DNA from: Trypanosoma brucei
Lineage: Eukaryota
Length of the DNA stretch: 64,000 nt
Assembly: GCA_000002445.1 (NCBI GenBank)
Contig: CH464491.1
Location: 5,120,001 to 5,184,000, forward strand
Reading direction: 5' to 3'
In this document: positions 5,809-62,265 of the stretch, piece by piece
Layout: each line of letters opens with the position of its first letter
Position numbering within the stretch: position 1 is the first letter of the stretch
Position numbers and translations under genes: made by a program
The notes under the pieces: model-generated
Database searches by the model: none
Seen by the model: only the letters and a program-made list of their open reading frames with translations
What the model was told of the DNA's origin: nothing

Positions 5809-7455
5809 TTATAGAAGAAAAAATGCAGACCAAAGAGGTTCCTTAATCACAACAGCATTTATTCTTGTGGTATTTGTATTTTTTCCACCTCGATTTGCTG
5901 CATCTTCTTGTCTTGGTGTGTAATTTGGATCCACTACGCACTTTTTATTTTCGCCTGTGCCCTCCCATTTGCAGCCATCTTTGCACTCCCCTTCAGTTTT
6001 CTTTTCGGAGCACTTTGAAGTGGACTCTCCTGCTGTTGTGGCTTTTGATGTGTTACCTTCGAATTTGCTATCTTTTTCATTATATTTGCACCCTGGGGTG
6101 TTGTTGCACTTCTCTTTCTCGGCTTCACCTTTGCAAACGTCTGTCACCCCTGGTTGTAGCTGCTTTTGCTTGTTTTATGCTGTGGCAGGGCTTCTATGAA
6201 TTCTTGCAGTAAAGAAGGCCAGAGTGTGCGCGAAGTTTTTTTCTTTGGAGAGTTCGGAAATCGGCCCTGTGGCTTCTTGGTCCCCTATTTTTATTGCTGT
6301 GCTTCCTTCGCTTAGGGGTTTACAAAGTTCTGTTCTAGAGAGTCTTTGCTGCTGCCGTAAGCTTGCTTTAGAATGGCGAGTGTGTTGGCTTCGGTTATGT
6401 CCACTTCTTTGTTTACAGCTTGGGTTTCCAGTAAAATTGCCGTAATTCTTTGCATTTGAGGGTCTTTGCTTAGACTTGCAATCGTTTCTTTAGTGACTTG
6501 TTTTGGCGAGTGGATCTTGATGCCCCGTGCTTTACAGACCGTATAAGCGAGGCGGGCCTTGTTGACGGTGAGTGCCGTGGTGTCGGTTGGTTCCCCGCCG
6601 CAGTCGTCCCCCGCTTCCGAATTTCGTTTGACATCTTGGTTTACGAGATCTGTGTCCGCCGCTGTTGTGAAGCTGAGGAAAGCGTTTAGGCCGTTGGATG
6701 CATAGCTGCTTGTGGCGCCGGTTATGCCGCACCTGCCGTCGTTTGTTTTTTATCCGCTGGCTGTTGTTGGTGTCCCTTTTGCTTCTTCTTTGAGCGTTTT
6801 GTCCCGGCGGCGGAAAATTACATCCTTGGCCACTTTGATCGTTGTTTCGGTTTCCATTTTTACCACGGCATTTGCGAGGTCCTGTTTGTTTTGCAGCTCC
6901 GCCGCGCAAGCGGTGTTGTCACCAGCTTTTTCTGGTGTCGTTAACGTACAGACTTCAGTTGACCCTCCGTACGTCCCAGCCGCGCTTGCGAAACCGGTAC
7001 CTCGAAACCCTCCATACCGGTGGCTGTGCTGCGGTTACTGCTTGCACCGCCTGCAGTTGGTGGACCCTTTTGCGTATTGTTTCTGCTGCTCTTTCCCGGC
7101 GTGCTCTTGTTGTCTTCAGTGCAGCTGCAGCCGTTAGCGTCCGCACTGTCGCCAGTGCTGTTAATGCAGCATACACTGCGTATTTGGGCCCTTGCCAGCT
7201 TGCCGCTGTCGCCAGCGAAAGCATCTGTTGGTTGTCAGTTAGTTTTTTTAGGTTTTCTTCTGCTGTTGTTACCCTATTTTCCAACGTCGCCGCAATGTTA
7301 AGAATGTATTGGACCTTTGAGCAAATGTCGGTGACAGCTTTTGCCGCGCTGTCTGCTGGACTACCTCCTTTTACCGCCGTCGGTACTGCCAATAATATCG
7401 TGAGGGACGTTAAGAATCTTACCACGTTGCGGTGTCGTTCGTTTACTGCTGCCAT
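5809..7455 (-). pseudogene. VSG: VSG pseudogene (N-domain ORF 6955-7455; frame-shifted middle; C-domain ORF 5809-6147)
   Basis: N-terminal ORF with signal peptide (MAAVNERHRNVVRFLTSLTILLAV) and A-type N-domain text; C-terminal ORF with CKDGCKWEGTGENKKC and hydrophobic tail; the middle is only open in other frames. Confidence 0.7.
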
Positions 7456-8149: not shown

Positions 8150-8351
<202 letters not shown>

Positions 8352-10429: not shown

Positions 10430-11100
10430 TTATTCCAAGTAAGATTTTTCATAATCAGTCTTGCTTTCTCTTCCCATGCAATTGGCTGACCAAAAGAAAA
10501 TGAATGAATGGGGCTTCTCCAAACTCTCCACTAGTTGGAATAGAAAAAAACTCTTATCATAATCCAATCCAATCATTCCTCTCTTCAAAACAAATCTCTG
10601 TCCAACAGCTTCTTCCTCAATCACACTCCAAATTAGTAAAGTTTTGAAAATACTCTCGCTATTAAGCTACCACTTTTACTAAGAAAAGTTTTTCCACTAG
10701 GATGTGATTTTAATAAATGAGGTAGCTTCTTCTCTTTCCCTTTTTTATAATAAAGATCAAAAACAGTAGCATTTCTCTATATCCTCTTTATGAATATCCT
10801 CTTCTCTAAACTTGTCTTTATTTCAGCAGTATTTTGTATAAAATATTGTACAGACTTTTCATATTTATGACGATCACAAACAATACCATCAGCTCCGTCA
10901 ACAGTTATTACAATATCCTCATCAATTGAATTATGTCTTTCTAAAAATTCCAAAATTCACTTAGGTATTTTAACTTAGCTATACAAACTTCTTATCGAAA
11001 TTGTAATAATTTTAACATGGCTTAGTTTGGCACTCAAAATGAGTTTACGCTATCCTTGAATTGCATGAGTTTGAATTACAGAAACAGATACTCCTCCTTT
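10430..11100 (-). pseudogene. Degenerate fragment of the same secreted-protein family as 38803-39899 and 62731-63832 (tentatively ESAG3-like)
   Basis: ORF 10430-10624 (…QEEAVGQRFVLKRGMIGLDYDK…) aligns to 38803-39210; DNA at 10680-11060 is homologous to 39540-39780. Confidence 0.45.
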
Positions 11101-11564: not shown

Positions 11565-11760
11565 CTCCGTTTGCCTTAATAATATTCGTATTTACACACT
11601 CACAACAGTTTCCTATCTTAATAAGAATTATTATTACAATCACTATTATTACTATTACTGCTCTTATTATATATTCGTATACACACACTCACAACACTCT
11701 CCTATCATCATCATCATTACCATTTTTATTATTATTATTACTATCGTTATTATAGCTCTA
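11565..11760 (-). repeat. 70-bp repeats (about two units)
   Basis: Two copies of …attcgtat(t/a)cacactcacaaca… separated by TAA/ATT-rich tracts. Confidence 0.85.
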
Positions 11761-11989
11761 ACTAGTATCCATAAAATAATTCAAAATAAACTAAATTTAA
11801 AAATTAAAATATAACTAATTTTCTTACCCTATCGCCATACTTCTTTAAACCCATATGTCACTTTCAGCAAAAAATTTATATTTTAGAGTTTTTCAAAATT
11901 TCGCATTTTCATGAAAAAGTGTTAAAGTATTTAAAAATTTCGTTAATTTTATAAAACTGAGCAATAATTCTTAACATGCTACCGAACCG

Positions 11990-12300
11990 ATAAAAGCAGC
12001 CATACTCAGGGCAAATCTCTTGTTTACTAGAAAACTACCATTTCGGCACATTTCTTTTTCGGGTTCGGGTTCACCCTCTTTAAACTTCCTCCATGCACAA
12101 TTTTGCTTCTCGCCTGTTTTGTCACTTTCACAATCAGGTTGATATTAGTGCCTTGCACACCCAGTTGAAGCCGCTGCTCCATGCAGCTCCATCTCCAGCT
12201 CCTGCTTTAGGTTTGCATTCCTGTGTTTTTGTGCCATAGTCGCAGTCAGCTTATTGTCATTCTTCTGCAGTTGTGTTTTTTAGTTTGCATTTATTTTGTT
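11990..12300 (-). pseudogene. VSG: VSG C-terminal domain fragment (…EQNKCKLKNTTAEE…) with GPI-tail remnant, downstream of conserved block X (12300-12720)
   Basis: Minus-strand translation matches fragment 35926-36377 (EEQNKCKLKNTTADECPSEHC…); nucleotide homology to 36000-36640. Confidence 0.6.
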
Positions 12301-12817
12301 CCTTTACTGTTAGCTTGCCCCTTTGTTTTTGCAGTGTATTTTCGGAATTGGTGATTATGGGGACATTTATTAATATCTTTGGGGGCTGCCGCCGGATTTT
12401 TCGGGGCATGGCGTTGCGCTTGCATTGCCCTGCTGACACTGCAGTTAACTGCTCGCCGCCTCCTCTTTCTTTGGCTGTGTTGCTGTGCTGCACCACGACC
12501 GGTCCAGGCTGCTATGTCGACTGGCTTTATCTGCCGAACATCATATTCTGACGCTTCCAAGGTTAAGATTTTATCGTTAGCGCCTCTTGAAAAGTAAATC
12601 GTCTCGTGCAGCGAAGCTTCCGCGTGCCAGCGTAAAAAGAAAAGGCACGTGCAGCGCTATATTCCACGATCCAGCCCTTTTTTAAAAAAAATGTTTTAAA
12701 GCCGCGCACAGCATAAAATGAAGAGCTGAGCTTCGAAAAAGCAACAAGAGCGAAAATGTAAATTGCAGCTTAAAATAAAAGTAAAAAATAAAGCACGGAC
12801 GTCGGTGGTGTGAATAA

Positions 12818-12975
12818 GGGTTAGGGTTCGCGGCAAAAAAATAGCCGCTGCATCATTAAGAAAAAGGTATAAGTCGCCACGCATCACTGCTAATAAAAAT
12901 ATCAAAAGGAAAATTAAAACCATAACCCTAACCCTAACCACCTAACCCGAAACACCTTAACCCGAATCACCGCAT
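12818..12975 (-). repeat. Interstitial telomere-like module A: GGGTTAGGGTTCGC + AGCCGCTGCATCATTAAG + (CCCTAA)n on plus, i.e. (TTAGGG)n on the VSG coding strand
   Basis: gggttagggttcgcggcaaaaaaatagccgctgcatcattaag … aaccctaaccctaaccacctaacccgaaacaccttaacccg. Confidence 0.85.
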
Positions 12976-13389
12976 TTGCCGCTCCGAACAAAAAGGGGCG
13001 CTGACAAAAAAAACGATGCCGGGTTGTAACAAAAAAAAATCAAAAACGAAAAAAATCTGAAAAATGTCGAAAACTAAAAAGCAAAAAAAAAAAAGAGAAT
13101 GTAAAAAAAATGTAAGCTAAAAACCGTTAAAAATTCAAAAAAAATGTAAAAAAAATGTAAAAAAATGTAAAAAAACAAAAACTCGGAAAATAGAAAAAAC
13201 TGAAAAAAAATTTAAAAGAAAAATCTAAACTGGGGCCCGAAGGAAATTAAAAGAAAGTTTAAAAAAGAAAGTGTGTGCTGTAAAATGTGGTAAAAAAAAT
13301 TAATTTTTCAAAAAAAAAGTGAGCAAAAAAAGGTCACGAAAAAAATTAAAATTAAAATTAAAAAAAGGTGCGTTTGCGGGAGGCGTGCG

Positions 13390-13570
13390 TGGGGGGGGGG
13401 GGAGGAGGGTTAGGGTCCGCACAATCAACAGCTGCTGCATCATTAAAAGAATTTAAAAAATGAATTAAAGAAAAAAGAAAAGAAAAAAAGTAACCCTAAT
13501 CCTAAGCCTAATCCTAAGCCTAATCCTACCTAACCCCATAACTAACCTAACTAACCTAACTACCCCCAAT
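13390..13570 (-). repeat. Interstitial telomere-like module B: poly-G13, GGGTTAGGGTCCGC, GCTGCTGCATCATTAA, then degenerate CCTAAT/CCTAAG/CTAACCTAA hexamer tract
   Basis: gggggggggggaggagggttagggtccgcacaatcaacagctgctgcatcattaaaag … taaccctaatcctaagcctaatcctaagcctaatcctacctaaccccataactaacctaactaacctaac. Confidence 0.85.
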
Positions 13571-13719
13571 TCCTACTTATCCTCTCTACCACTTGCACAA
13601 AAAGTTAAAGTTAAAAATTCAACAGGAAAAGAAAAATTTTTTTTAGTTTCCAGAAAAACAATTTTTTACAGAATCAGATTTTTTTACAACCAACAAAAAA
13701 TTCTCGAATGAATTTTTAG

Positions 13720-13735
13720 GTGTTAAAATATATCA
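13720..13735 (-). promoter_or_regulatory. VSG 3'UTR conserved 16-mer (TGATATATTTTAACAC), preceded by TTGCTACTTGAAAACTTC
   Basis: Plus strand gtgttaaaatatatcagaagttttcaagtagcaa is the reverse complement of the canonical VSG mRNA 3' end. Confidence 0.85.
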
Positions 13736-13797
13736 GAAGTTTTCAAGTAGCAAAAATTTTTAGCAAGGAAAACTTTAAAAAGAGGGGGAAATTTTGT

Positions 13798-15378
13798 TTA
13801 GAAAAGCAAGGCCGCAAATGCAGCAGAAGCCACGCCGAGGGCGAATTTCTTGTTTACTAGAAAACTACCATTTCTGCACTTTTCCTTTTCAGGCTCATCT
13901 GTTTCACCCTCCTTACCCTTTCTCCATGCACAATTTTGCTTGTCGCCTGTTTTGTCATTTTCACAAGCGGTTTTATCTTTGTGCCCTGTGCACCAAGCTG
14001 CAGTTGTTCCCCCCTCTTTTGTTGTGCCTTCTGTTCCTGCTGTTTCCGGTGTTGCCGATCCTGGTTTAGATTTGCATTCCCCCTTTCCATCTTTTTCTTC
14101 CCATTTGCAGTTAGCTTTGATGCAAGTCTGGTTTGTTGTGTGAGTGCTACAGTTGGTCGTCGTCTGCCCTATTGTATGCTGTTTTTGAGTTCCTCCTTTG
14201 ATTTTCTCAAGTGCAGCGGCCGTAGCTTTTGCCGAGTCTACAATAACAACTGCATCTTTCTTTAGTTTTTTGATCTGTTCTATTATCTGTAATCCGCGTT
14301 GCTTGTTGCTTTCAAGTGTTTGAAGGCCTAGCGCTAGGTTTTTTAGCGGGGGTATCCAGGTTAGTTGTTCTACTATAGGCTGTGCCTTGCTTGCGAAGCC
14401 GCTGAACTCTAAGCATACGCCTTGCGCTTTGTTGCCGTCACATTTCGAGCTTGCGAACTGTCCTAGGTATGCGTTGCTGGTGTCTTTGTGTATGAGGTCG
14501 TTGAGGTTAGCTATGGCGGCTAGTATTTCTGTGCCGGTTATTTGTCCTGCGTCAAACGGACATGATTTTGCTAGCTTGCCTAGGTTCGCTGCCGTTACCC
14601 CGGTCGCGAATGTGCTGGCGGCTTCCCAGGTGCCGCCGTCGGCCGCCTGTACGCAAACTGCTGGGTCTACATTGTTTGTGCCTCTAAAGCAGACGCATGT
14701 GAGGGCTTCCAGGGCTGTTGCCGGGTTGCCGTTGCCGCCTGCAGCTTTGCATACCGAGTCCCTTGTGCCTGTTGTTGTGCCTGTAAAAACCTTTGATGGG
14801 TCTGGGTTGCTTGCTGGCTTTGCATTTTCTCCGTATACGGCTGTTGCTATGGTTTCTTTTGCCGTGTTATCCTTGGGTGCGTCGGACGGTGGTTGTATGC
14901 TCTGCAATTCTTTCGCCAGCTCGTGCGCTCTTGTTCTAATGTGCTTTAAGTGATCCCGGGCTAGAGTTTCTTGGTCTTCGGTTAGTTCCATTATGCCCGC
15001 CTGGTTTTTTTGTCCCCCCGTCGTTGCTTCCAGTTTTTTGGCGGCGATCTTTGTCCACCGAGGCCAGTTTTCTTCAAACCCTCTGCCATCCTGGCCCGCT
15101 GATTTTGGGTTATCGTGCGTTTTCTTCGCAGCTTTGTCGCTGTAAAACATTTCTTGCCAAGATCCTGTTGCTGCTGAAAAATTTACCATGTGTATGTAGT
15201 CCAGGTCGTCTTCTGGCATAGCCGGTATGGTCGGTATCTCTACTTCGCGCGGTGCCATCGCCACGAATTTGCACAAAGCCGCGTGTTCCTGGCGGTTGGC
15301 TCCGCCCACAATGTCTGTCCCTTCTGTTTTCGTCACTAACCAAAGCACAATCGTCATTGGTAGCATTATTGCGTACAT
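13798..15378 (-). CDS. VSG: VSG, intact (526 aa; signal peptide MYAIMLPMTIVLWLV; C-domain …CKWEEKDGKGECKSKPG…; GPI signal SFLVNKKFALGVASAAFAALLF)
   Basis: Uninterrupted minus-strand ORF with full VSG architecture and canonical 3'UTR. Confidence 0.9.
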   Translation of the reverse strand: MYAIMLPMTIVLWLVTKTEGTDIVGGANRQEHAALCKFVAMAPREVEIPTIPAMPEDDLDYIHMVNFSAATGSWQEMFYSDKAAKKTHDNPKSAGQDGRGFEENWPRWTKIAAKKLEATTGGQKNQAGIMELTEDQETLARDHLKHIRTRAHELAKELQSIQPPSDAPKDNTAKETIATAVYGENAKPASNPDPSKVFTGTTTGTRDSVCKAAGGNGNPATALEALTCVCFRGTNNVDPAVCVQAADGGTWEAASTFATGVTAANLGKLAKSCPFDAGQITGTEILAAIANLNDLIHKDTSNAYLGQFASSKCDGNKAQGVCLEFSGFASKAQPIVEQLTWIPPLKNLALGLQTLESNKQRGLQIIEQIKKLKKDAVVIVDSAKATAAALEKIKGGTQKQHTIGQTTTNCSTHTTNQTCIKANCKWEEKDGKGECKSKPGSATPETAGTEGTTKEGGTTAAWCTGHKDKTACENDKTGDKQNCAWRKGKEGETDEPEKEKCRNGSFLVNKKFALGVASAAFAALLF

Positions 15379-17439: not shown

Positions 17440-17515
17440 ATACTACCCTTTTTATAATATTCGTATATGCACACTCACAACACTCTTATAATATTATTAC
17501 TATTAATATCGTGGT
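17440..17515 (-). repeat. 70-bp repeat
   Basis: ttataatattcgtatatgcacactcacaacactcttataatattattactattaata. Confidence 0.8.
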
Positions 17516-27480: not shown

Positions 27481-27779
27481 TAACCATAAATTACACCAAT
27501 TTTTATAAAATAAATCAAATACATTTAATTATAATATTTAATAATACCATTTATTTTCCATACAATATCACAATTTTACTCTACACACAGAGGTAACAAC
27601 CACGTACATTTTGCGAATTTTTACATTTATACAACAAATTGTTAAAATATGTCAAGAGCTAACATTTTAAACAATCTCTTTCAAAATAAAAAAGAATTCA
27701 TAAATTTCTTAAAATTGAGCAAAAAGTTTTTACCAATAATTATTAAAATTTTTATGCTATAAGCAAAAATGCAAGCAAA

Positions 27780-27945
27780 ATTGGGTTTCTATCACAAAAG
27801 AATTTATCCCTCTGGCGTTTGTTTTCCCTCTTGATTCGGTCCATCTACCTGTTTTAGTGTGTAATTCGGATCTTTTACGCACTTTTTATTTTCGCCTGTT
27901 TCCTCCACTTTGCAGCCACCTTTGCAGTCATCTCCTGTTCCTTTT
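27780..27945 (-). pseudogene. VSG: VSG C-terminal fragment (…GDDCKGGCKVEETGENKKCVKDPNYT…)
   Basis: Minus-strand translation resembles the C-domain of 5809-6147; position analogous to the fragments at 11990 and 35926. Confidence 0.5.
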
Positions 27946-28076
27946 TTTGAAAGTTTCGTCTTTTTCTATTATTTTTTGCGGTTGTGCGTTGCCTCTTTGT
28001 TGCCGCTTCGTTGCACGTGCGTGGTAACGAAAAACCTGAGGTGCCCGAAAAAAGCTTAGCTCCCGCGTAAAAAAAA

Positions 28077-28268
28077 GACGCTGCATCGCTAATAATTTAA
28101 AAAATTGTGAATTATAAAAGAATAAAAAAAGAAGTAAATTAAAAAACAATCCCCAAAATTAAAAACCCTAACTCTAACCCTAACCGAGTAACCCTAACCC
28201 TAACCCTAACCCTAACCCTAACCCTAACCCTAACCCTAACTAGCCTAACTAACCTAACTAACCTAACG
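28077..28268 (-). repeat. Interstitial telomere-like module C: GACGCTGCATCGCTAATAA motif plus (CCCTAA)~9 perfect repeats (28190-28238) and CTAACTAACCTAA variants
   Basis: aaccctaactctaaccctaaccgagtaaccctaaccctaaccctaaccctaaccctaaccctaaccctaaccctaactagcctaactaacctaactaacctaac. Confidence 0.9.
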
Positions 28269-28414
28269 ACCCCACCCCCTCGCCATTTGCAAAAAGAAAA
28301 ACTCAAAAAAAAACGGGAAAAAGAAGGAAAAAAAATTTTACTTGCCAGAAAATATTTCTAGACAATCAGACAGTCAACTTATAAACACAGTTCAAACTTT
28401 CGGGAAACTTTGGG

Positions 28415-28430
28415 GTGTTAAAATATATCA
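28415..28430 (-). promoter_or_regulatory. VSG 3'UTR 16-mer, with poly-C13 tract (plus-strand poly-G at 28476-28488) in the 3'UTR
   Basis: ggtgttaaaatatatcagaagttttcaaatagtaaaa; ttgaggggggggggggggaag. Confidence 0.85.
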
Positions 28431-28489
28431 GAAGTTTTCAAATAGTAAAATTTTAGCAAAGGAAAAAAGTTGAGGGGGGGGGGGGGAAG

Positions 28490-30010
28490 TTAAAAAAGCA
28501 AAAATGCAAGCAAAAGAGGGACCTTAATTACAGCTGAAATAAAAACCGTTCCCTCTTTGACTTTGCACTCATTCTTTTCCTTGTTCCAAGTGCATTTTGT
28601 CGTGTCACAATTAGTTTCGGACGAGGCTTTGCAATCAGCTGCGCTTGCTTTATTATCCCCGTCTTTCTTTTCTCCTGTTGCTGCTTCCGGTGTTTCCGTT
28701 CCTGGTTTGGATTTGCACTCCCCCTTTCCACCTTTTTCTTCCCATTTGCAGTTAGCTTTGGTGCAAGTCTGGTTTGTTGTGTTAGTGTTACATTCCACTT
28801 CTGATTTTGCTTTGTCTTTGGCTTGACTGTGTGACGGTTGGTTCGCTAGTTGGTGGATTTGCCTCGCTGCATAAGTGGCTTCGGCGGCTGTTCTTAAGGT
28901 CTTAAGGGCCGCTGCTGCCGTCCGTAGTTTTTCTTTTTTTTCTTTTCTTTCATTTAGCAGTCGCGCAGCTATTTCGAGCTGCTGCATCCACTTTATTCTT
29001 GTTGTTTTGGGCGTCAAGTCCATGTTATAGTAGCTTTCGTAGTCTACACAAATGTGGTCATCGTCTCCGCTGCAGTGGTTGGCGGTTGACTTCCCTAGTA
29101 TCTGATTTTTTGCTGTGTCGCCGTGGTACCTGCCTATCATTTGCTCCAGGTTCGCTATTGCCGATGCTATGTTCGCTGCCGTGGCTTCCGGCTGCGATAC
29201 CTCCGCGCAATTGTCGAGCAGTTTCTTCGCGGTTTGTTCTACGTTTGTTGCGCCGCTGGTCCAGCCTGTCGTTAGCTGAGTATGTGTGCAGCCTTTGCTT
29301 TCTGCTGCTGTTTTCCCAGCGCAAAGGCAAAGGACGTCATAGGCTAGGTTGTCGCCGACGTTGGTTCCTTTGCAGTCGTCCTGCCCGCATTCCGCTTCAT
29401 TCGGTGGCTTTAGCGCCGGAAGGCCCTCGCCGTCTTTTTGTTTGTCACCATACAGAGCTGCGCGCAGTGCTGTTTTTATCGCCTTTAGTTCTCGACCGTT
29501 GGCAGCGGTGATGCCCTCCGTGTAGGTGCGCGCGAGAGCGGCTGCCTCTTCGGCGTAGACAGCTAGTTGCTTCGCCGTTTTGGCTTGCGCCGGGCCCTGT
29601 TTAGGTGGTGGGTTTTGTTCTAGCCATTTTTTGTTAGCAGCGTTCGGATATGTTGCCTTTTCTGTTTTGAGCCAGTTTGGCCATTTTTGGCCCCAGTATG
29701 ATTCAAATTCTTGGTTTGTGAAATTCCCTTTTGAGGCTTGCCAGTCGTGGCTTGCGCCACCGCCGCCGAATTTGGTGCGCCATTCAGCGCTGGCTGCTGT
29801 CATGTTAAGTTTGTCGATCTCGAATGCGTCACTGGCAACACTGTCGTCGGATTTTAGCGGTTCTGGATCTGACTGCGCTAGTCTTATTAGCTTACAAAGC
29901 GTCCTGTATTCGGCTGCTGATTTTCCAGCACTTGTTGCCGCTTCTGCTCCTGGCATCAAAAGTTTTATAACATACAAAAAAGTTAAGAAATACCTTGTGT
30001 AACTTCGCAT
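28490..30010 (-). CDS. VSG: VSG, intact (506 aa; signal peptide MRSYTRYFLTFLYVIKLLMPGAEA; GPI signal TVFISAVIKVPLLLAFLLF)
   Basis: Uninterrupted ORF; C-domain CTKANCKWEEKGGKGECKSKPG; canonical 3'UTR. Confidence 0.9.
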   Translation of the reverse strand: MRSYTRYFLTFLYVIKLLMPGAEAATSAGKSAAEYRTLCKLIRLAQSDPEPLKSDDSVASDAFEIDKLNMTAASAEWRTKFGGGGASHDWQASKGNFTNQEFESYWGQKWPNWLKTEKATYPNAANKKWLEQNPPPKQGPAQAKTAKQLAVYAEEAAALARTYTEGITAANGRELKAIKTALRAALYGDKQKDGEGLPALKPPNEAECGQDDCKGTNVGDNLAYDVLCLCAGKTAAESKGCTHTQLTTGWTSGATNVEQTAKKLLDNCAEVSQPEATAANIASAIANLEQMIGRYHGDTAKNQILGKSTANHCSGDDDHICVDYESYYNMDLTPKTTRIKWMQQLEIAARLLNERKEKKEKLRTAAAALKTLRTAAEATYAARQIHQLANQPSHSQAKDKAKSEVECNTNTTNQTCTKANCKWEEKGGKGECKSKPGTETPEAATGEKKDGDNKASAADCKASSETNCDTTKCTWNKEKNECKVKEGTVFISAVIKVPLLLAFLLF

Positions 30011-32214: not shown

Positions 32215-32405
32215 TGCCGGAAAATAAACACTCACAACATTCTTCTGTAATTATCATTATTATTATTATTATTACAATTATTATTATTACTGCTCTTATT
32301 ATAATATTCGTATAAACACACTCACAACACACTCTCATCATTATTATTATCATTACAATTATTATTATTATTACTGCTCTTATTATAATATTACTGTCAT
32401 AACCC
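32215..32405 (-). repeat. 70-bp repeats (about 2-3 units)
   Basis: ctcttattataatattcgtataaacacactcacaacacactctc … repeated with (att)n tracts. Confidence 0.85.
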
Positions 32406-35925: not shown

Positions 35926-36380
35926 TTAAAGTACTATAATTTTATAATTATAGAGTGCAGCCAAACCCGTCAAAGCAGCAGCTATATTCATAGCCGATTT
36001 CTCATTGACAAGAAAAACTGGAAGAGCGGCACTCGGACTTGAGAAGCTTTCCCGTACCATCAACACGGTCAATTCATCAACATACTGCTTTCTGACCCGG
36101 TTTGGCATCCTTTTTTTTTTGCCTCACATGCTTTCTGGGATCGGTGTTTATTTTAATCTACCACAGTGCTTGTCTCTTTCGTTCCTGCTGCTGTATTTTC
36201 TGCTCCTGGTTTGGATTTGCATTCCTCTTTGTTGCCGTCATAATTGCAGTGCTCGCTTGGGCATTCGTCAGCTGTTGTGTTTTTTAGCTTGCATTTATTC
36301 TGTTCTTCTATTGTTGGATTGTTGCTTTTTTTTTTTTGCGGTGGATTTATGCCCGTGGTGATTATGGAGCCCTGCATTAA
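35926..36380 (-). pseudogene. VSG: VSG C-terminal fragment (EEQNKCKLKNTTADECPSEHCNYDGNKEECKSKPG…; GPI tail …AAALTGLAALYNYKIIVL* in a shifted frame)
   Basis: ORF 36153-36377 plus tail ORF 35926-36108; homologous to 11990-12300. Confidence 0.65.
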
Positions 36381-36589
36381 GGTGCTTTACATCTGCTGCC
36401 GGAGCTGTTGCGGCATGGCAATGTGCACGCATTGGCCTGCTGACACACAAGTTAACTGCTCGCCGCACCCGACTGCTTTGGCCAGGCTGCTATGTCGGCT
36501 GGCTTTAGCCGCCAAACTCCATATTCTGCCCTTTCTAAATATTAAGATTGTTTTGCTAGCGCCCCTTGAAAGGAAAATTGTATACCGGA

Positions 36590-36890
36590 GCGAAACTGCC
36601 ACAAGCCAGCGTTTAAAATAAATTTGAAGTCGCGCGCAGTGCAAAATGCAGAGATGAAATTCACCAAAGCAGAAAGAGTAACAAACACCACTGCGCGGGT
36701 AGTTTCTGAATATAAAAGGAGCCGCTGCATCACTGAAAAAATTAAAAAAAACAATGTGCTGCAAAAAAAAAAACAGAACAGCCGCTGTATCATTAAGAAA
36801 ATTGCAAAGAGAAGCAATCCAATACGGAAGAGCTGCGTAAAAAAAATGTAACCCTAACCAAGTAACCCTAACCCTAACCCTAACCATTCC
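36590..36890 (-). repeat. Interstitial telomere-like module D: two AGCCGCTG(C/T)ATCA(C/T)T motifs (36721, 36781) plus (CCCTAA)n 36850-36887; conserved block X at 36380-36660
   Basis: taaccctaaccaagtaaccctaaccctaaccctaacc; gagccgctgcatcactg…cagccgctgtatcattaag. Confidence 0.85.
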
Positions 36891-37029
36891 TACCTACCCC
36901 CAACTTCCACAAAAACTCAAAAAAAAACGGGAAAAGAAAAAACAAATTAAGTTATCAGAAAATCAAAAAAATTACAGAATCAGACAGTCAATTTACAAAA
37001 ACAGTTCGATTTTTTCGGTTAAATTAAAG

Positions 37030-37045
37030 GTGTTAAAATATGTCA
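37030..37045 (-). promoter_or_regulatory. VSG 3'UTR 16-mer variant (TGACATATTTTAACAC)
   Basis: gtgttaaaatatgtcagaagttttcaagtagcaaaaa. Confidence 0.8.
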
Positions 37046-37106
37046 GAAGTTTTCAAGTAGCAAAAAATTTTAGAAAAATTAAAAAAAAAAATTGAGGGGG
37101 AAAAAT

Positions 37107-38651
37107 TTAAAAAAGCAAGGCCACAAATGCAGCAGAAACAATGCTGAGGGCGAATTTCTTGTTTAGGAGAATAGAGGAATCCTGGCACTTTCCTTCAATC
37201 CAACCGCAAACAGCGTTTTTGCCCTCCTTCTTTTTTCCTGGGGCCTTGGCGCATGTGTCGGGGTCCGTATACTGGCCACAATTAGGGTCTTCTGCCCCTC
37301 CTGCTGCTGCTGCTGTGTTTTCTGTTCCTGCTTTAGGTTTGCACTCGTTTTCCTTTTCGTCATGTTCGCAGCCAAGGCTTTTGCATTCTGTTGCGGTTTT
37401 CTTTGCTGTGTCGCTGCAGTTGCTGTTTGTCGGCTGTTTTTCCTCGGTCTTGTCTGCTTGCTGCTTTTGTTCCGAGGCTGGGCTGTGTCTTTCATCGGTG
37501 ATGGCTGCCGATTTTAGTGCGTAGGCTGTTTTCGCCGCTGCCGCTATGGTCTGCTCCACGGCTGCTAGTTTCGACAGAGCTTGTTCGTGTTCATGTAGCA
37601 GCTTGGCTGCTGTCTGCAGTTGGCTTAGCCATGGGTGAGTTGCTAGAGTTTCCAGTTCCTGCTTTGTTCCTGCTTTGTACATCACGCAGATGCCTTGGTT
37701 CGATTTCCCTGAGCAACCTGTTCCGGTGTAAAAGCCGTAGTAAGTGTCTTTGCCTTTCTGTTGGAATGCGTTGATTAATGCTGTTGCTTTTGCCTGTACT
37801 TCGGCTGCCGTGGCTGGCGTTTTGGGCGATGGTTGTGGGCACTTGCTTAGAAGATCTTTTAGAACTTGCTCCGGTGTGCTGCTCGGGTTGAATGCCGTTG
37901 ACGACTGACTGCTTTCGCAGAGCTTGTTGTTGTCGGTGCCGTCGACTCCGCAAACGCACAGCATAAACTGTGCTATTGTGTTTGCTTTGGCGTCAGTGTT
38001 TGGGGCTCCGCACAGCAATTGTCTGGTCGTTCCGGTGCCTCCCTGGCCTTTGCAGTCGGTGTCTTTCGCACCGGCGGGGGTAAAATCGTCACGGCCGTAG
38101 GCGGCGATCTTCAGCGCTTTGAGTGCATCGTTTGCTTTGTCCTTTTCGGGACCGGTCGCTAGTTGTGTGACGTGTTGCAGCGCTTGAAAAGCGTGTTCCG
38201 CTATCGGGTTTAGCTGCCTTCTGTAGTTTGCTAGCTGTTCTTCCGTTACGTCGGCCAGTCCCGCGGTCTGTAAAATCTGTCGTCTTGTATCGCTGTCTTT
38301 GACCGCGGCTGCTGCTTGTTTCCAGTACTCTTCTCTGGGGTCCGGAGCTGCTGGCTGTGCGGGTGCTGATGCGATCTGTTGTTTGTGCGCCGCTCCCTCG
38401 GTTTTGCTTGCGATTGTGTCGCGCCAACTCTGCGGTGCTACGGAGGCGTTGAGCTTCGCAATGGCCAGATAAGAAACCTGCGCTTGTGCATCTGTGATTT
38501 TTGCCGGAGCTGGTCGCTCTGCTAGGTTGACGAGCTCGCACAGCTGTCGGAAAAGGTGGCCGTGCTCGCCGTCGTCCGGGGCGCTGCTGGCCAGATAAGC
38601 TAGCGTCGCGACAATCGCAGATACTCGGATAAGGTAGCTTGTTTTGATCAT
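37107..38651 (-). CDS. VSG: VSG, intact (514 aa; signal peptide MIKTSYLIRVSAIVATLAYLASSA; GPI signal SSILLNKKFALSIVSAAFVALLF)
   Basis: Uninterrupted ORF with VSG N- and C-domain features. Confidence 0.9.
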   Translation of the reverse strand: MIKTSYLIRVSAIVATLAYLASSAPDDGEHGHLFRQLCELVNLAERPAPAKITDAQAQVSYLAIAKLNASVAPQSWRDTIASKTEGAAHKQQIASAPAQPAAPDPREEYWKQAAAAVKDSDTRRQILQTAGLADVTEEQLANYRRQLNPIAEHAFQALQHVTQLATGPEKDKANDALKALKIAAYGRDDFTPAGAKDTDCKGQGGTGTTRQLLCGAPNTDAKANTIAQFMLCVCGVDGTDNNKLCESSQSSTAFNPSSTPEQVLKDLLSKCPQPSPKTPATAAEVQAKATALINAFQQKGKDTYYGFYTGTGCSGKSNQGICVMYKAGTKQELETLATHPWLSQLQTAAKLLHEHEQALSKLAAVEQTIAAAAKTAYALKSAAITDERHSPASEQKQQADKTEEKQPTNSNCSDTAKKTATECKSLGCEHDEKENECKPKAGTENTAAAAGGAEDPNCGQYTDPDTCAKAPGKKKEGKNAVCGWIEGKCQDSSILLNKKFALSIVSAAFVALLF

Positions 38652-38802: not shown

Positions 38803-39899
38803 TCACGTTTTATTAGCTTTAAACAAATACCCTTCTTTAAACGCGTCCCCACAAATTCTTTCATATCGAAAATGCCAATTCTCTCCGGACACTGCATAAG
38901 TTTCTATTTTCCCCATATCCTTCGAATTAAATTCTCCTCCTTTCAACCTTTTATACCAAGTAAGATTTTTCACAATTAACTTCGCTTTTTCCTCCCATGC
39001 AATAGGCTGTCCGGGAAAATGAATGAATGGGGCTTCTCCAATCACACCACTACTGGGAATAGTAAAAAATATCTCTTTATAATCCAATTCAATCATTCCT
39101 CTCTTCAAAACAAATCTCTGTCCAACAGCTTCCTCCTGTGTAACACTCCATATTAGCAATGGCGTATAGATACTCTGCTCTGACCACCACTCCTCGCTCC
39201 CTTTAAGCAATTCTCCAAAAGCATATTCAAATTTCTTAAATGCCCAAACTCTTGCGATTATATTACCACCTCCAAGGTAAGGTTTTCCGCTAGGAGGTGA
39301 TTTTAGTAAATGGGGTAATTTTTATCATATTCTTTTTGGTAACCAACATTAAAAAACCAAAAACATCTCTGTACATGCTCCTTGTGATCTGAGTTCATGA
39401 GCAAGTTCAACTGAGGAGCATAACACTCCGGAGTTGCTATAAATAAAATAGGGGAAATATGCTTCTCTTTTACTGTATCCTCTTCACTAAACTTCTCTTC
39501 ATTTTCCGCAGTATTTTGCATAAACTATTACACAGCATTCTCAGACTTCTGTTAACTAACAATAACATCAGATCCATCTGCAGTTATTACAATATTCTCA
39601 TCACTTGCATTCTGGTTTTCTAAAAATTCCATAATCAACTGCGGCCTCTTAACATGCTTATACAAACCTCCCATCGCAATTGAAATAATTTCAACATGGC
39701 TTAGTTTAGCACTCAATATGAGGATACACCATCCTTGTGTTGCGTGAGTTTGAACGGCAACCACAAATACTCTATGTTTCTTATTATTATTCTTTGTCAT
39801 ATTTGTTATGTTATTTGTCTCATTACCGTCATGAGATATTGAGTATAAACACACGAAGTGCAGAAAAGCCAGATAAAGCCCACATAAACTATATTTCAT
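38803..39899 (-). pseudogene. Secreted, N-glycosylated subtelomeric family member (tentatively ESAG3-like), frameshifted pseudogene (ORFs 39552-39899, 39303-39521, 38803-39210)
   Basis: Signal peptide MKYSLCGLYLAFLHFVCL, NETNNITNMTKNNNK sequons, three consecutive ORFs in different frames; paralogue of 62731-63832. Family name is from recollection, not from a search. Confidence 0.5.
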
Positions 39900-59929: not shown

Positions 59930-60000
59930 AATTCAAGCAACAGAGGGGCATTAATCAAAGCAGAATTGCTTCCTGTGGAGCCTGTAGGGTTTCTATCATT
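59930..60000 (-). pseudogene. VSG: VSG 3'-terminal remnant (…PTGSNSALINAPLL…)
   Basis: Minus-strand translation of 59935-60000. Confidence 0.45.
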
Positions 60001-60279
60001 TCCACCAGTTCACTTTTTTTTTTTACTTCCTTCTTTGTTTTCTTACTCAATGTGCACAGTTTACCCTAGACGGCTTTTGGGTTAAAAACGTACCTCCGGA
60101 AGTCTAGCACCTTTGGATGGTGGGTGCCAAAGACAGAGTGTGTAGCTACTCCTTAGTTGCTTATTTTAATTAGCGGCTATCCCCTAAATATTAGTATATT
60201 TCCTTAATTTCCCCCTTTAAAAAACAAACCGCGTTCAAAACCATAGGACACGCGCCAGCTTTTTAAAAGAATTTAAGAG

Positions 60280-60640
60280 TCGCACAGCGCAAAATGCAGA
60301 GATGAAATTCACAAAAGTGTAAAAGTAAAATTATAACAAATCTGCAGAGAGGTTGAGTCGGCAAACTTAAGCAAAGATGTTTGTCGCGTAAATAAGGGTT
60401 GGGGTCCGCATAACAAAATAGCCGCTGCATGACTATAAGAATAAAAAAGCATCAACCAGGTACAAAAAAAGCATAATAAATCGTATCACCAGCGGCGGGG
60501 CACATAAAAAAAAAGGAGCCGCTGCATCACTAAAAGACTAAAAAAACAAAAAAAGAAAAGGAGAAAAAATTAACCCTAACACACTACCCCTAAGCATAAG
60601 CCGGAAAACCCCCTAACTAACTAACCTACCTACCCACAAA
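60280..60640 (-). repeat. Interstitial telomere-like module E: conserved block (gtcgcacagcgcaaaatgcagagatgaaattcac), GGGTTGGGGTCCGC, two AGCCGCTGCAT(G/C)ACTA motifs, degenerate CCCTAA/CTAACTAACCTA tract
   Basis: taagggttggggtccgcataacaaaatagccgctgcatgactataag … ggagccgctgcatcactaaaag … ttaaccctaacacactacccctaagcataagcc…ccctaactaactaacctacctaccc. Confidence 0.8.
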
Positions 60641-60759
60641 AACTCCAAAAAACGGGAAAAAGGAAAAAAATTTTAGTTGCCAGAAAAACACAAAATATTT
60701 TTACAGAGTCACAATTTTACAAACTTACAAAAACAGTTCAATTTTTTCGGGTAAGTTAC

Positions 60760-60775
60760 GTGTTAAAATATATCA
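60760..60775 (-). promoter_or_regulatory. VSG 3'UTR 16-mer
   Basis: gtgttaaaatatatcaaaagttttcaaatagcaaaaa. Confidence 0.8.
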
Positions 60776-60834
60776 AAAGTTTTCAAATAGCAAAAATTTT
60801 TAGCAAAAATTTAGCAAGAAAAATAGGGGAAAAT

Positions 60835-62265
60835 TTAGAAAAGCAACACTGCAATCAAAAGAGGAGCCTTGTGAATGACAAAAGAATTGCTTCCTGTGGT
60901 GTTTGTAGCTTTGGCATAATCCCCATTTTTCTTGTCGTCTTTGCTCTTTTTCGGAAAACATTTTGGCGTTTTGTTTTCATCCAAATAACAGCCTTCTTTT
61001 TGACAGTGTTCTGGGGTTGTTTGGCTTCCACATTGTTGTGGTTTTTGTGTGGAGGTCTCTGTTTTACAGCTAGGCTTGTTTTTTCTTTGAGAGGCATGGT
61101 ATGCTAAAACTAATCCTCTGTTAGTGTCGGTAGAAAGTTGTTCGATTTTGCTGTCAATGTCTGTTCCCGCTATTTTCTGCTTTACTGAGTTTGCCTTCAC
61201 CTTCTCCCATATCTTAGCATTGAATTCTGTCTCAGTGCCTCCGAACATGGCTTTTATGCCGTCTGTTATGGCTTTCTTTTGCGAATCACTGCTTGCGTCG
61301 TATTTGGCTGCCGGGCCTTGTAATTCTATCAGAACTGCTTTTCTCACGCCTTCGTCGTTTTGTACAACTGCCATGTTACGGACTGAGGCCATATCTGCGT
61401 CGCATGGTTTGTTTTTGAGAAAGTCGTAGAGGCGGTGTTCTATGCTCGTTTGGTGTTTCTCCAATTCTTTTTTTAGTCCTTGCGGTGTGTCTGAGCGTTT
61501 GGGCTTAGCGTCGGTTGTTTTCACCGCTAGCTGCGCAAGTTCTCCTGCCTTAAAAAGTGTTGCTGCCGCTGATGAAACTTTGATGTTGGTCTCGGCTGTG
61601 CTGCAGGCAGCGCCTACACATGCGACCTGGCAGACACCGGCGGCGGTGTCTGCGGTGGTTTTGCCTTCCAGTTTGTGTATTCTGATCGACTCTAGCTGCC
61701 GCGTGTCTGGGTCGTTATCTGTATTTGCCGCCGTCGCCGTGTATGTCTTTGCACATGAATCGTCGGTCAGTTTGTCCAGTTTTAGGTGACCTGAGACTGA
61801 CTGCCCTTGGCCGGTGTTTGACATCGCCTGAGCTGTCCCTGTCGCTGATTTGATTTCCGTTGCAGATGATAGCGCCAAGTTTTTGCCGGCTTCGATGTTG
61901 AGCGTTCGTGTTAGTTGGCTTACTGCTTGCGCGCACGTTACAGCCGCTTTTGCTAAAGTCGCTGTGCGCCTTGATGCGTATTCTGACAGCCCGGCTATTG
62001 CTGCGTTGGCTGCCCCCGTATCTGTTGTTGCTGCGTAGACCTCAAGCGCCCTGTGCTCATCTACCGCTTCCGTTGTTTTCTCCAGCAGACTCTTCAGTTT
62101 CCCCTCCGCTGCCGCAGCGAGCTTGATTAGGTAATGCGCCGATTTGCATGGCGTGTCTTGTTTTGTGAGTTCCGCTGCGGGGTCAGCTTGTGTGCCGCGA
62201 CTTAGCAGCAGTGTTGCCACAACTAAGCCAATAAAAGTCGCAATTATATTGCTAACTGCGGTCAT
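60835..62265 (-). CDS. VSG: VSG, intact (476 aa; signal peptide MTAVSNIIATFIGLVVATLLLSRG; GPI signal GSNSFVIHKAPLLIAVLLF)
   Basis: Uninterrupted ORF; C-domain CQKEGCYLDENKTPKCFPK. Confidence 0.9.
   Translation of the reverse strand: MTAVSNIIATFIGLVVATLLLSRGTQADPAAELTKQDTPCKSAHYLIKLAAAAEGKLKSLLEKTTEAVDEHRALEVYAATTDTGAANAAIAGLSEYASRRTATLAKAAVTCAQAVSQLTRTLNIEAGKNLALSSATEIKSATGTAQAMSNTGQGQSVSGHLKLDKLTDDSCAKTYTATAANTDNDPDTRQLESIRIHKLEGKTTADTAAGVCQVACVGAACSTAETNIKVSSAAATLFKAGELAQLAVKTTDAKPKRSDTPQGLKKELEKHQTSIEHRLYDFLKNKPCDADMASVRNMAVVQNDEGVRKAVLIELQGPAAKYDASSDSQKKAITDGIKAMFGGTETEFNAKIWEKVKANSVKQKIAGTDIDSKIEQLSTDTNRGLVLAYHASQRKNKPSCKTETSTQKPQQCGSQTTPEHCQKEGCYLDENKTPKCFPKKSKDDKKNGDYAKATNTTGSNSFVIHKAPLLIAVLLF

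What the first reader, a model, noticed from the sequence alone, without database searches (positions are those of the whole stretch)
11990..13797. Intact, 16-mer-bearing VSGs are each followed by an interstitial telomere tract and a conserved junction module ending in a truncated VSG C-terminus (unit 1 of 4)
Read on the coding (minus) strand, VSG 13798-15378 is followed by its canonical 3'UTR, then degenerate (TTAGGN)/(TTAGGTTAG) repeats, then a short (TTAGGG)n tract, the motif CTTAATGATGCAGCGGCT, an inverted GCGRACCCTAACCC, a conserved ~400-bp block X, and a VSG C-terminal fragment. This is the order expected at a telomere (VSG then TTAGGG), but here unique subtelomeric DNA continues. The same architecture recurs at 27780-28489, 35926-37106 and 59930-60834, always behind a different full-length VSG. 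The three intact or long-ORF VSGs without a 16-mer (8670, 17947, 47590) lack it. Block X and the fragment are near-identical between 11990-12700 and 35990-36640 although the adjoining VSGs differ. This pattern reads as a scar of telomeric VSG cassettes captured into an internal array, by break and fusion or by long conversion tracts that carried part of the donor telomere.
Basis: partly seen in the sequence, partly recalled or inferred. Interest (0 to 1): 0.75.

Follow-up and report, generated by a model that had tools for sequence, protein, structure and literature searches.

The report
Fossil telomere flanks behind array VSGs
In this Trypanosoma brucei surface-antigen gene array, each of the four fully intact genes still carries the downstream sequence normally seen next to a chromosome end, including a short telomere-repeat tract, which suggests that working antigen genes were copied from chromosome ends back into the silent archive.

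Summary
The window is a subtelomeric VSG array of T. brucei brucei TREU927, on a 5.26-Mb record that I take to be chromosome 11.

Four intact VSGs (13798, 28490, 37107, 60835; minus strand) are each followed by:
- an expression-type 3'UTR with the 16-mer;
- a conserved spacer of about 150 bp;
- TTAGGG-like variant repeats that grade into 1-8 perfect TTAGGG;
- a conserved motif or core;
- the 3' stump of an older VSG with an array-type flank and the next 70-bp repeat.

None of the 14 or more other VSG 3' ends in the window has any of this. Two intact T. equiperdum VSGs show the same layout.

- Block X is 68% identical between units 1 and 3, not near-identical.
- VSG 17947 does have a 15/16 16-mer.
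- The "junction module" is not a private scar. It is a conserved repeat (a GC-rich core of about 75 bp containing CCCTAACCC, plus 330-400 bp of T-rich DNA with phased T-tracts). It is colinear in all copies and tandemly duplicated in unit 1.

Best reading: these are relics of telomere-proximal VSG flanks placed into array slots. At least some then spread by duplication, with the VSG exchanged.

Origin from independent breaks is only partly supported. I found no published description.

Interest is moderate.

The parts
13798..15378 (-). Intact B-type VSG of unit 1. It is 526 aa and ends in the canonical GPI signal ...AAFAALLF.
   Evidence: ORF. Pfam VSG_B (E = 4.8e-72) and Trypan_glycop_C (E = 5.2e-28). 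100% identical to the TREU927 VSG P0001.
13720..13797 (-). Expression-type ('T-type') 3'UTR. It contains ...GCTACTTGAAAACTTC and the perfect 16-mer TGATATATTTTAACAC (13720-13735).
   Evidence: Mean pairwise identity of this UTR among the six T-type units is 75%.
13567..13719 (-). Conserved post-16-mer spacer. It is pyrimidine-rich and ends ...TTTTCCTGTTGAATTTTT...GTG.
   Evidence: The nhmmer profile hits only the four window units plus L001 and L003 (E = 2e-28 to 9e-36). Mean pairwise identity is 71%.
13492..13566 (-). TTAGGG-like tract 1. Variant repeats occur in a fixed order (TTAGGTTAG, then TTAGGA/TTAGGC) and end in TTAGGGTTAC.
   Evidence: TRF rows 13491-13528 and 13539-13562. The same order of variants is seen in L003.
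13372..13462 (-). Full core 1: TAATGATGCAGCAGCT, then 9 nt, then GCGGACCCTAACCC, then TCCTCCCCCCCCCCCC-ACGCACGCCTCCCGC (GC-rich, about 78 bp).
   Evidence: Core profile hit with E = 6e-20.
12985..13371 (-). T-rich spacer, 59% T on the VSG strand, with T-tracts spaced 10-11 nt apart.
   Evidence: Composition. TRF periods of 10-11. Repeat families D1-D4 with spacing 10-11. Colinear with the T-rich regions of L001 and L003 at 59-61% identity over 420-465 bp.
12918..12966 (-). TTAGGG-like tract 2. It runs from degenerate to perfect and ends in TTAGGGTTAGGGTTATGG.
   Evidence: It is a direct duplicate of tract 1 at a spacing of 568 bp (D6 and D8).
12787..12878 (-). Full core 2, the 'terminal type': CTTAATGATGCAGCGGCT, then 11 nt, then GCGAACCCTAACCC-TTATTCAC.
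   Evidence: Core profile hit with E = 5e-20. It duplicates core 1 at a spacing of 587-589 bp (D12 and D13). The same variant occurs in unit 4.
12434..12786 (-). Non-VSG half of block X. It includes TTCAT.T.T.C.TTTTATGCTGTGCGCGGCT... and is shared with units 3 and 4.
   Evidence: Unit 1 against unit 3: 68% over 466 bp. Unit 1 against unit 4: 66% over 173 bp. No Pfam or VSG match.
11971..12433 (-). 3' stump of an older VSG: hinge, C-terminal domain and GPI signal ...SFLVNKRFALSMAAFIGSVAC*, with frameshifts and stops.
   Evidence: blastx to VSG residues about 367-516. Trypan_glycop_C with E = 5.7e-15. Translation.
11595..11970 (-). Array-type ('A-type') 3' flank of the stump, followed by two 70-bp repeat cores (11684-11697 and 11595-11608) that start the next cassette.
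   Evidence: Homologous to the A-type flank after the stump in L001 (68% over 234 bp).
27757..30010 (-). Unit 2. VSG 28490-30010; 16-mer 28415-28430; tract about 28164-28275 with (TTAGGG)8 at 28192-28239; degenerate core 28061-28095; VSG stump about 28030-27757.
35975..38651 (-). Unit 3. VSG 37107-38651; 16-mer variant 37030-37045; tract about 36848-36900 with (TTAGGG)3 at 36866-36883; motif copies at 36780-36797 and 36720-36737; block X about 36700-36423; VSG stump from about 36422.
59930..62265 (-). Unit 4. A-type-N-domain VSG 60835-62265; 16-mer 60760-60775; degenerate tract about 60565-60640; half core 60512-60538; full core 60361-60450 (GCGGACCCCAACCC); X-like DNA; GPI-signal stump about 60010-59930.

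Best explanation
What the units are:
- Each unit is an expression-competent VSG cassette that kept the 3' flank typical of a telomere-proximal VSG.
- That flank consists of the short UTR with the 16-mer, a conserved pyrimidine-rich spacer, a fossil subtelomere-telomere junction, and a telomere-associated repeat.
- In the fossil junction, variant TTAGGG-like repeats in a fixed order grade into a few perfect TTAGGG.
- The telomere-associated repeat is a GC-rich core of about 75 bp containing an inverted CCCTAACCC, plus 330-400 bp of T-rich DNA with phased T-tracts.
- This block lies inside the array. It replaces all but the last 25-150 codons of a resident array VSG, whose own array-type flank and 70-bp repeat follow.

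Inferred history:
- A telomeric VSG and its downstream flank were copied into an array slot. The 5' end was set by homology in the upstream region or the 70-bp repeat.
- The 3' end was set by an illegitimate or microhomology join in the hinge/C-terminal region of the resident gene.
- The resulting unit then spread by cassette duplication. The VSG was exchanged by gene conversion bounded by the upstream region and the telomere-type flank.
- Because only a telomere-type flank brings a complete UTR, these are the array genes that are intact and directly expressible.

Shown versus inferred:
- Shown: the architecture, its strict link to the flank type, its homology between copies and between two genomes, and the stump with its array flank.
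- Inferred: the direction of transfer (telomere to array), the joining mechanism, and the number of events.
For: - All six telomere-type flanks with visible downstream DNA carry the tract and the core. These are the four window units plus T. equiperdum L001 and L003.
- None of the 14 or more array-type 3' ends in the window carries them, nor do L002, L004, L006 or L007.
- The tract runs from degenerate to perfect in the VSG sense direction, as at a real chromosome end.
- Published data fit. TTAGGG-like repeats are the recognised mark of telomere-proximal VSGs (PMC3708902). In expression sites the telomere repeats begin 200-1590 nt after the VSG (PMC2567434).
- By my own arithmetic from the coordinates, the tract here begins about 210-235 nt after the stop. 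The telomere-type DNA runs about 430-1365 nt before the stump.
- Every unit ends in a VSG C-terminal stump followed by the same array-type flank that ordinary array pseudogenes have.
- Upstream blocks are shared with array-type cassettes.
- Units 1 and 3 share block X and a homologous stump at 68% identity, yet their VSGs are 24% identical. This shows duplication of the unit with VSG exchange.
- Unit 1 has a second degenerate-to-perfect tract after the T-rich DNA. This suggests that the T-rich repeat normally sits next to telomere repeats.
Against: - No true chromosome end could be fetched. It is therefore not shown that the core and T-rich repeat occur between a telomeric VSG and its terminal array.
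- The direction of transfer is inferred. Array cassettes with an internal tract could instead be the source of telomeric flanks, by breakage and healing.
- The sample is small: six loci from two closely related genomes, with the T. equiperdum loci chosen by homology to one window VSG.
- The stump always being the last 25-150 codons is not explained by random joining.
- Copies are only 60-79% identical, so the events are old and their number cannot be counted.
Confidence: 0.6

Rival explanations
1. Independent captures. Each unit is a separate break-and-fusion or long conversion event. Each event carried a different length of donor telomere-proximal DNA into a different array gene. On this model the conserved core and T-rich repeat belong to the donors.
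For: - The telomere-type DNA has a different length in each unit. My arithmetic from the coordinates gives about 430, 590-700, 685, 1245 and 1365 nt. All fall within the published VSG-to-telomere range of 200-1590 nt.
- It ends on different kinds of stump in units 2 and 4 and in L001.
- The V13798 and V28490 cassettes share an upstream block at 88% identity but a downstream flank at only 70-72%. That fits a flank that arrived together with each VSG.
Against: - Units 1 and 3 share block X and a homologous stump, so at least that junction is inherited rather than independent.
- Unit 4 shares the terminal-type core and the start of X with units 1 and 3.
- No real telomere was available to show that the core repeat belongs to donors.
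Confidence: 0.25
2. A selected functional element. The internal tract plus core is kept behind intact array VSGs because it does something. Candidate roles are downstream homology for conversion into an expression site, a seed for telomere healing that turns an array VSG into a telomeric one, or a binding site for TRF/RAP1 or base J that silences the gene.
For: - The spacer beyond the UTR is almost as conserved as the UTR itself (71% against 75%), while array-type flanks are at 60%.
- The link with intact genes is strict.
- Internal TTAGGG repeats have been suggested as possible TbTRF sites (PMC8191777).
Against: - No functional data were available here.
- Expressed cDNAs derived from V37107 (AGQ50265 and relatives) match it to about residue 445 and then switch to another C-terminus. 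In that case the 3' crossover lay inside the coding region, not in the flank.
- In units 1 and 4 and in L001 the perfect TTAGGG runs are only 1-2 repeats long.
- Conservation of the spacer may simply reflect the polypyrimidine signal needed for VSG polyadenylation. That is my inference.
Confidence: 0.1
3. An artefact, or a simple insertion of telomere repeats. Either the assembly is chimeric (telomeric reads collapsed into the array), or telomerase added the repeats during repair of an internal break.
For: - Repeats of this kind do break assemblies. L005 ends at the 16-mer and L003 ends in the poly-C of a core.
Against: - The same ordered architecture occurs four times in this window, each time continuing into a different stump and the next cassette.
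- It also occurs in an independent T. equiperdum assembly.
- The tract is embedded in a conserved flank with a fixed order of variant repeats, not a clean run of perfect repeats at a break.
- It is not a head-to-head telomere fusion either. Only 1.5 C-strand repeats are present, about 75-210 bp from the tract by my arithmetic from the coordinates. What follows is not an inverted VSG flank.
Confidence: 0.05

Closest known systems
3' flank of telomere-proximal VSGs in T. brucei (Aline & Stuart 1989 as cited by Hall 2013; distances in Hertz-Fowler 2008)
   Same: An intact VSG with a canonical 16-mer UTR is followed after about 200 nt by TTAGGG-like repeats in the VSG sense orientation.
   Different: Here the repeats stop after 1-8 perfect units. 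Non-telomeric DNA, a VSG stump and further cassettes follow, so the VSG is not at a chromosome end. The field uses these repeats as a marker of telomeric or minichromosomal VSGs, and these loci would break that rule.
Interstitial telomere tracts at boundaries of subtelomeric duplicons (yeast X-Y' and Y'-Y' junctions, human subtelomeric TTAGGG-like islands). From my own knowledge; not checked here.
   Same: Short, partly degenerate telomere tracts in head-to-tail orientation are retained between copied subtelomeric blocks. They are read as relics of former ends or of end-copying recombination.
   Different: Here the tract is tied to one gene class (intact VSGs) and one flank type. It is followed by a specific conserved core repeat.
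Plasmodium knowlesi intrachromosomal telomere-like repeats next to SICAvar/pir islands (mentioned in PMC9131526)
   Same: Antigen-variation gene families lie internally and are associated with telomere-like repeats.
   Different: The organism, the repeat and the gene family are all different. No gene-by-gene flank architecture, and no link to gene intactness, was described in the passages I read.
Minichromosome subtelomere of T. brucei (Weiden et al. 1991). I recall telomere-derived repeats and 74-bp G+C-rich direct repeats separated by about 155 bp of bent A+T-rich DNA. This is recalled from memory and could not be read.
   Same: A GC-rich core of about 75 bp alternates with AT-rich DNA carrying phased A/T-tracts, next to telomere-like repeats.
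   Different: The spacing here is 411-589 bp, not about 230 bp. No sequence comparison was possible, so this is a lead only.

Membership tests
Telomere-proximal VSG locus | Full-length VSG with the expression-type 3'UTR (conserved 16-mer) | tested here: met
   Four intact ORFs with VSG domains. The 16-mer is perfect in units 1, 2 and 4 and matches 15/16 in unit 3.
Telomere-proximal VSG locus | TTAGGG-like repeats a few hundred nt 3' of the VSG, G-strand in the VSG sense direction | tested here: met
   By my arithmetic from the coordinates, the tracts start about 210-235 nt after the stop in all four units and in L001 and L003. Published range: 200-1590 nt.
Telomere-proximal VSG locus | The repeats continue to the chromosome end as the terminal array | tested here: not met
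   At most 8 perfect repeats are present. They are followed by unique DNA, a VSG stump, 70-bp repeats and further VSG cassettes.
Array VSG cassette | 70-bp repeat(s) 1-2 kb upstream of the VSG | tested here: met
   70-bp cores lie at 17470, 32227-32330 and 40366, upstream of V13798, V28490 and V37107. The upstream end of V60835 runs off the window.
Array VSG cassette | Array-type 3' flank running directly into the next 70-bp repeat | tested here: not met
   The intact VSGs have the telomere-type flank instead. The array-type flank follows only the stump.
Interstitial telomeric sequence (subtelomeric relic type) | Telomere repeats at a non-terminal site, with degenerate variants, at a boundary between copied blocks | tested here: met
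   The tract lies between the VSG cassette and the remnant of an older cassette.
Short telomere insertion by telomerase at a repaired break | A clean run of perfect repeats inserted between otherwise contiguous unrelated flanks | tested here: not met
   The tract is part of a 300-440 bp flank that is colinear in six loci, with a fixed order of variant repeats. An empty orthologous site could not be examined.
Head-to-head telomere fusion | (TTAGGG)n abutting (CCCTAA)n, followed by an inverted subtelomere | tested here: not met
   Only CCCTAACCC (1.5 repeats) is present. By my arithmetic from the coordinates it lies about 75-210 bp from the tract, behind a conserved motif. The downstream DNA is T-rich, not an inverted VSG flank.
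Minichromosome-type telomere-associated repeat (Weiden 1991) | Sequence identity of the GC-rich repeat and the bent AT-rich spacer | not testable with these tools
   The paper and its sequences were not retrievable. The resemblance rests on repeat size and phased A/T-tracts only.

The most novel reading that the evidence does not exclude
Behind every directly expressible array VSG lies an internal telomere seed plus a telomere-associated repeat. On this reading these slots are two-way docks.

- VSGs that have been tested by expression at a telomere are deposited back into the archive with their telomeric flank. This would renew the stock of functional genes.
- A chromosome break distal to such a slot can be healed at the seed, which instantly creates a new telomeric VSG.

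Flank type would then be a genomic determinant of the VSG activation hierarchy.
Probability: 0.2. Interest if true: 0.75.

Novelty: new variant of a known kind. Interest (0 to 1): 0.5.

Why it matters
- How the silent VSG archive keeps any intact genes, despite fast decay and no selection on silent copies, is an open question. A telomere-type flank behind the intact array genes would be physical evidence that functional VSGs flow from chromosome ends back into arrays.
- It would give a simple sequence marker (flank type) to test against activation order.
- It also warns that 'TTAGGG-like repeats downstream' is not a safe criterion for calling a VSG telomeric or minichromosomal.
- These elements break short-read assemblies, so such cassettes are probably under-counted.

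Tried and rejected
Searches and look-ups that led nowhere:
- Rfam scan of 11800-13900. Only one sub-threshold miRNA hit, so there is no telomerase-RNA-like or other RNA family.
- Pfam on three frames of block X. Only the C-terminal stump matched. The 5' half of X is not recognisably VSG or anything else.
- Exact-protein look-ups of TREU927 VSGs. Not indexed, so no neighbouring TREU927 sequence or other T. brucei strains could be fetched. Only T. equiperdum OVI contigs were reachable.
- One homologue search was wasted on an invented consensus C-terminus.
- A metagenome scan for the core found nothing, as expected.
- Ten literature searches and about a dozen paper look-ups. No description of telomere tracts behind array VSGs was found. 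[quoted passage not shown]
- Marcello & Barry 2007, Cross 2014, Wickstead 2004, Weiden 1991 and Aline & Stuart 1989 were not readable. Prior description there cannot be excluded.

Ideas considered and rejected:
- Retroposed VSG mRNA. The conserved flank extends well past the 16-mer and is followed by T-rich DNA, not A-rich DNA.
- Head-to-head telomere fusion and telomerase insertion (see the membership tests).
Full report
**Source and context**

VSG 13798-15378 is 100% identical to a T. brucei brucei TREU927 VSG on a 5.26-Mb record. VSGs 28490, 37107 and 60835 are XP_829791, XP_829792 and XP_829794 of the same record.

The window is a subtelomeric VSG array with all VSGs on the minus strand. 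It holds about 15 VSG genes, pseudogenes or fragments. These are separated by 70-bp repeats. Two reverse-transcriptase-bearing retroelements lie on the plus strand.

Read on the minus strand, each of the four intact VSGs is followed by these elements in order:
- a short UTR with the 16-mer;
- a conserved pyrimidine-rich spacer;
- TTAGGG-like variant repeats that become perfect TTAGGG (1-8 copies);
- a T-rich stretch of about 50 bp;
- the motif YTTARTGATGCAGCGGCT, and in units 1 and 4 GCGRACCCYAACCC;
- further DNA;
- a VSG C-terminal stump with a GPI-signal remnant.

The telomere repeats and the motif are far above chance and occur nowhere else in the 64 kb. Profile HMMs of the spacer and of the core find only these four places.

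Three details need correcting.
- Block X is 68% identical between units 1 and 3, not near-identical.
- VSG 17947 carries a 15/16 16-mer.
- Unit 1 contains two tract-plus-core modules about 570-590 bp apart.

**Two kinds of VSG 3' flank**

The intact genes have what I call the T-type flank, described above.

All other VSG ends have an A-type flank. That group includes the stumps at the end of each unit. The A-type flank is a longer AT-rich stretch with at best a degenerate 16-mer, and it runs within 250-400 bp into the next 70-bp repeat.

Each unit therefore reads as follows. An array slot begins with a 70-bp repeat and an upstream block that is shared with A-type cassettes. Most of the resident VSG in that slot has been replaced by a different VSG together with a T-type flank. 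Only the resident's last 25-150 codons and its A-type flank remain.

**The same thing exists elsewhere**

Only T. equiperdum OVI contigs could be fetched.
- Two intact VSGs there (L001 and L003) show the same order of elements. L001 also has the stump, the A-type flank and the 70-bp repeat.
- Four VSGs with A-type flanks (L002, L004, L006, L007) have none of it.
- One T-type UTR (L005) is cut off at the 16-mer by the assembly.

The tally is 6 of 6 T-type flanks with tract and core, and 0 of about 18 A-type ends. The link is partly built in, because the UTR, spacer and tract form one contiguous conserved block.

**The 'junction module' is a conserved repeat, not a private scar**

All six copies are colinear over the first 300-440 bp after the stop codon. 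That includes the distal end of the tract (GGGTTA[AC]TTTTTTTCTC), a half core (motif only) and a full core.

The full core is about 75 bp and GC-rich: motif, about 10 nt, GCGGACCCTAACCC, a C-run, then ACGCAC...CTCCCGC. It alternates with 330-400 bp of DNA that is 55-60% T, with T-tracts spaced 10-11 nt apart. The core recurs in tandem at intervals of 411 bp in L001, 472 bp in L003 and 587 bp in unit 1.

In unit 1 the T-rich DNA is followed by a second degenerate-to-perfect tract. This suggests that the repeat normally lies next to telomere repeats.

Units 1, 3 and 4 share a variant core (CCCTAACCC-TTATTYAC), a box TTCATCTCTGCATTTTGC and the start of block X. The 3' half of X is simply the hinge and C-terminal coding region of the old VSG. 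The stumps of units 1 and 3 are homologous, while the VSGs in front of them share 24% identity. That unit was therefore duplicated and its VSG later exchanged.

**Comparison with the literature**

- 'TTAGGG-like' repeats 3' of telomere-proximal VSGs are established, and Hall 2013 used them to flag minichromosomal donors.
- In 17 expression-site clones the telomere repeats begin 200-1590 nt after the VSG.
- By my own arithmetic from the coordinates, the tracts here begin about 210-235 nt after the stop. The telomere-type DNA extends about 430-1365 nt before the stump, which is inside that published range.
- I found no description of such tracts behind array VSGs. Several key older papers could not be read.

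**Mechanism**

The degenerate-to-perfect gradient in the VSG sense direction, the expression-type UTR, and the retained stump with its array flank point to one history. Telomere-proximal VSG cassettes were copied into array slots, followed by duplication and VSG exchange.

Two questions remain open. One is whether the core repeat came with the donors, which would allow several captures of different length. The other is whether it marks one old junction. The shared stump of units 1 and 3 argues for inheritance. The different stumps of units 2 and 4 and of L001 argue for several joins. So does the contrast between the 88% identical upstream blocks and the 70-72% identical flanks of V13798 and V28490.

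A present-day function is not shown. Expressed cDNAs derived from V37107 switch to a foreign C-terminus at about residue 445. In that case the 3' crossover was inside the gene, not in the flank. The conserved spacer may simply be the polypyrimidine signal needed to polyadenylate a VSG that has no downstream gene. That is my inference.

**Verdict**

This is a real, reproducible and apparently under-described architecture. The notions of unique scars and of a near-identical block X are not correct. It is a new variant of known kinds (telomere-proximal VSG flank; interstitial telomere relics in subtelomeres).

Interest is moderate. It would rise if a genome-wide census shows that intact array VSGs generally carry this flank.

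Noticed in passing
window 62731-63462 (-); 38809-39524 (-); 10497-10776 (-); L001 425-1064; L003 1143-1670: A conserved ORF or pseudo-ORF ('ORF-X', 243 aa in its best copy) lies between the 70-bp repeat and the VSG in several cassettes. These include four of the six telomere-type cassettes and one array-type cassette. Copies are 43-65% identical at the protein level. It has no Pfam match.
   Followed up: partly
window 16693-15663 and 31381-30351 (-): The cassettes of V13798 and V28490 share an upstream block that is 88% identical over 1032 bp and ends about 300 bp before the ATG. Their VSGs are 27% identical and their downstream flanks 70-72%. The different parts of one cassette therefore have different histories.
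   Followed up: partly
window 22860-25400 and 25744-26394 (+); 42591-46757 (+): Two retroelements with reverse transcriptase and RNase H domains lie between cassettes, on the strand opposite to all VSGs. The larger one has a 1388-aa ORF and a zinc finger, and looks ingi-like.
   Followed up: no
window 37107-38651 (-): Four expressed VSG cDNAs in GenBank (AGQ49853, AGQ50059, AGQ50074, AGQ50265; 519 aa) match V37107 almost perfectly to about residue 445 and then carry a different C-terminal domain. This array gene has evidently been expressed as a 3' chimera or mosaic. I think they belong to Hall 2013 (possibly Set_88, donor Tb927.11.17440), but neither the attribution nor the set was verified.
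   Followed up: partly
L003 4620-4666; L005 2225-2240: T. equiperdum OVI contigs end exactly in the poly-C run of a core (L003) or at the 16-mer (L005). These flank elements break short-read assemblies, so cassettes of this type are probably under-represented in draft genomes.
   Followed up: no
window 8197-8345 (-): A long uninterrupted (TAA)n run of about 150 bp lies in the 70-bp repeat downstream of VSG 8670. It is much longer than in the other 70-bp repeats of the window.
   Followed up: no
window 5810-7455 (-): A further VSG pseudogene with frameshifts and stops was missed by the ORF list and by my first tblastn pass. Its C-terminal region is 78% identical to the stump of unit 2 (27791-27929).
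   Followed up: partly
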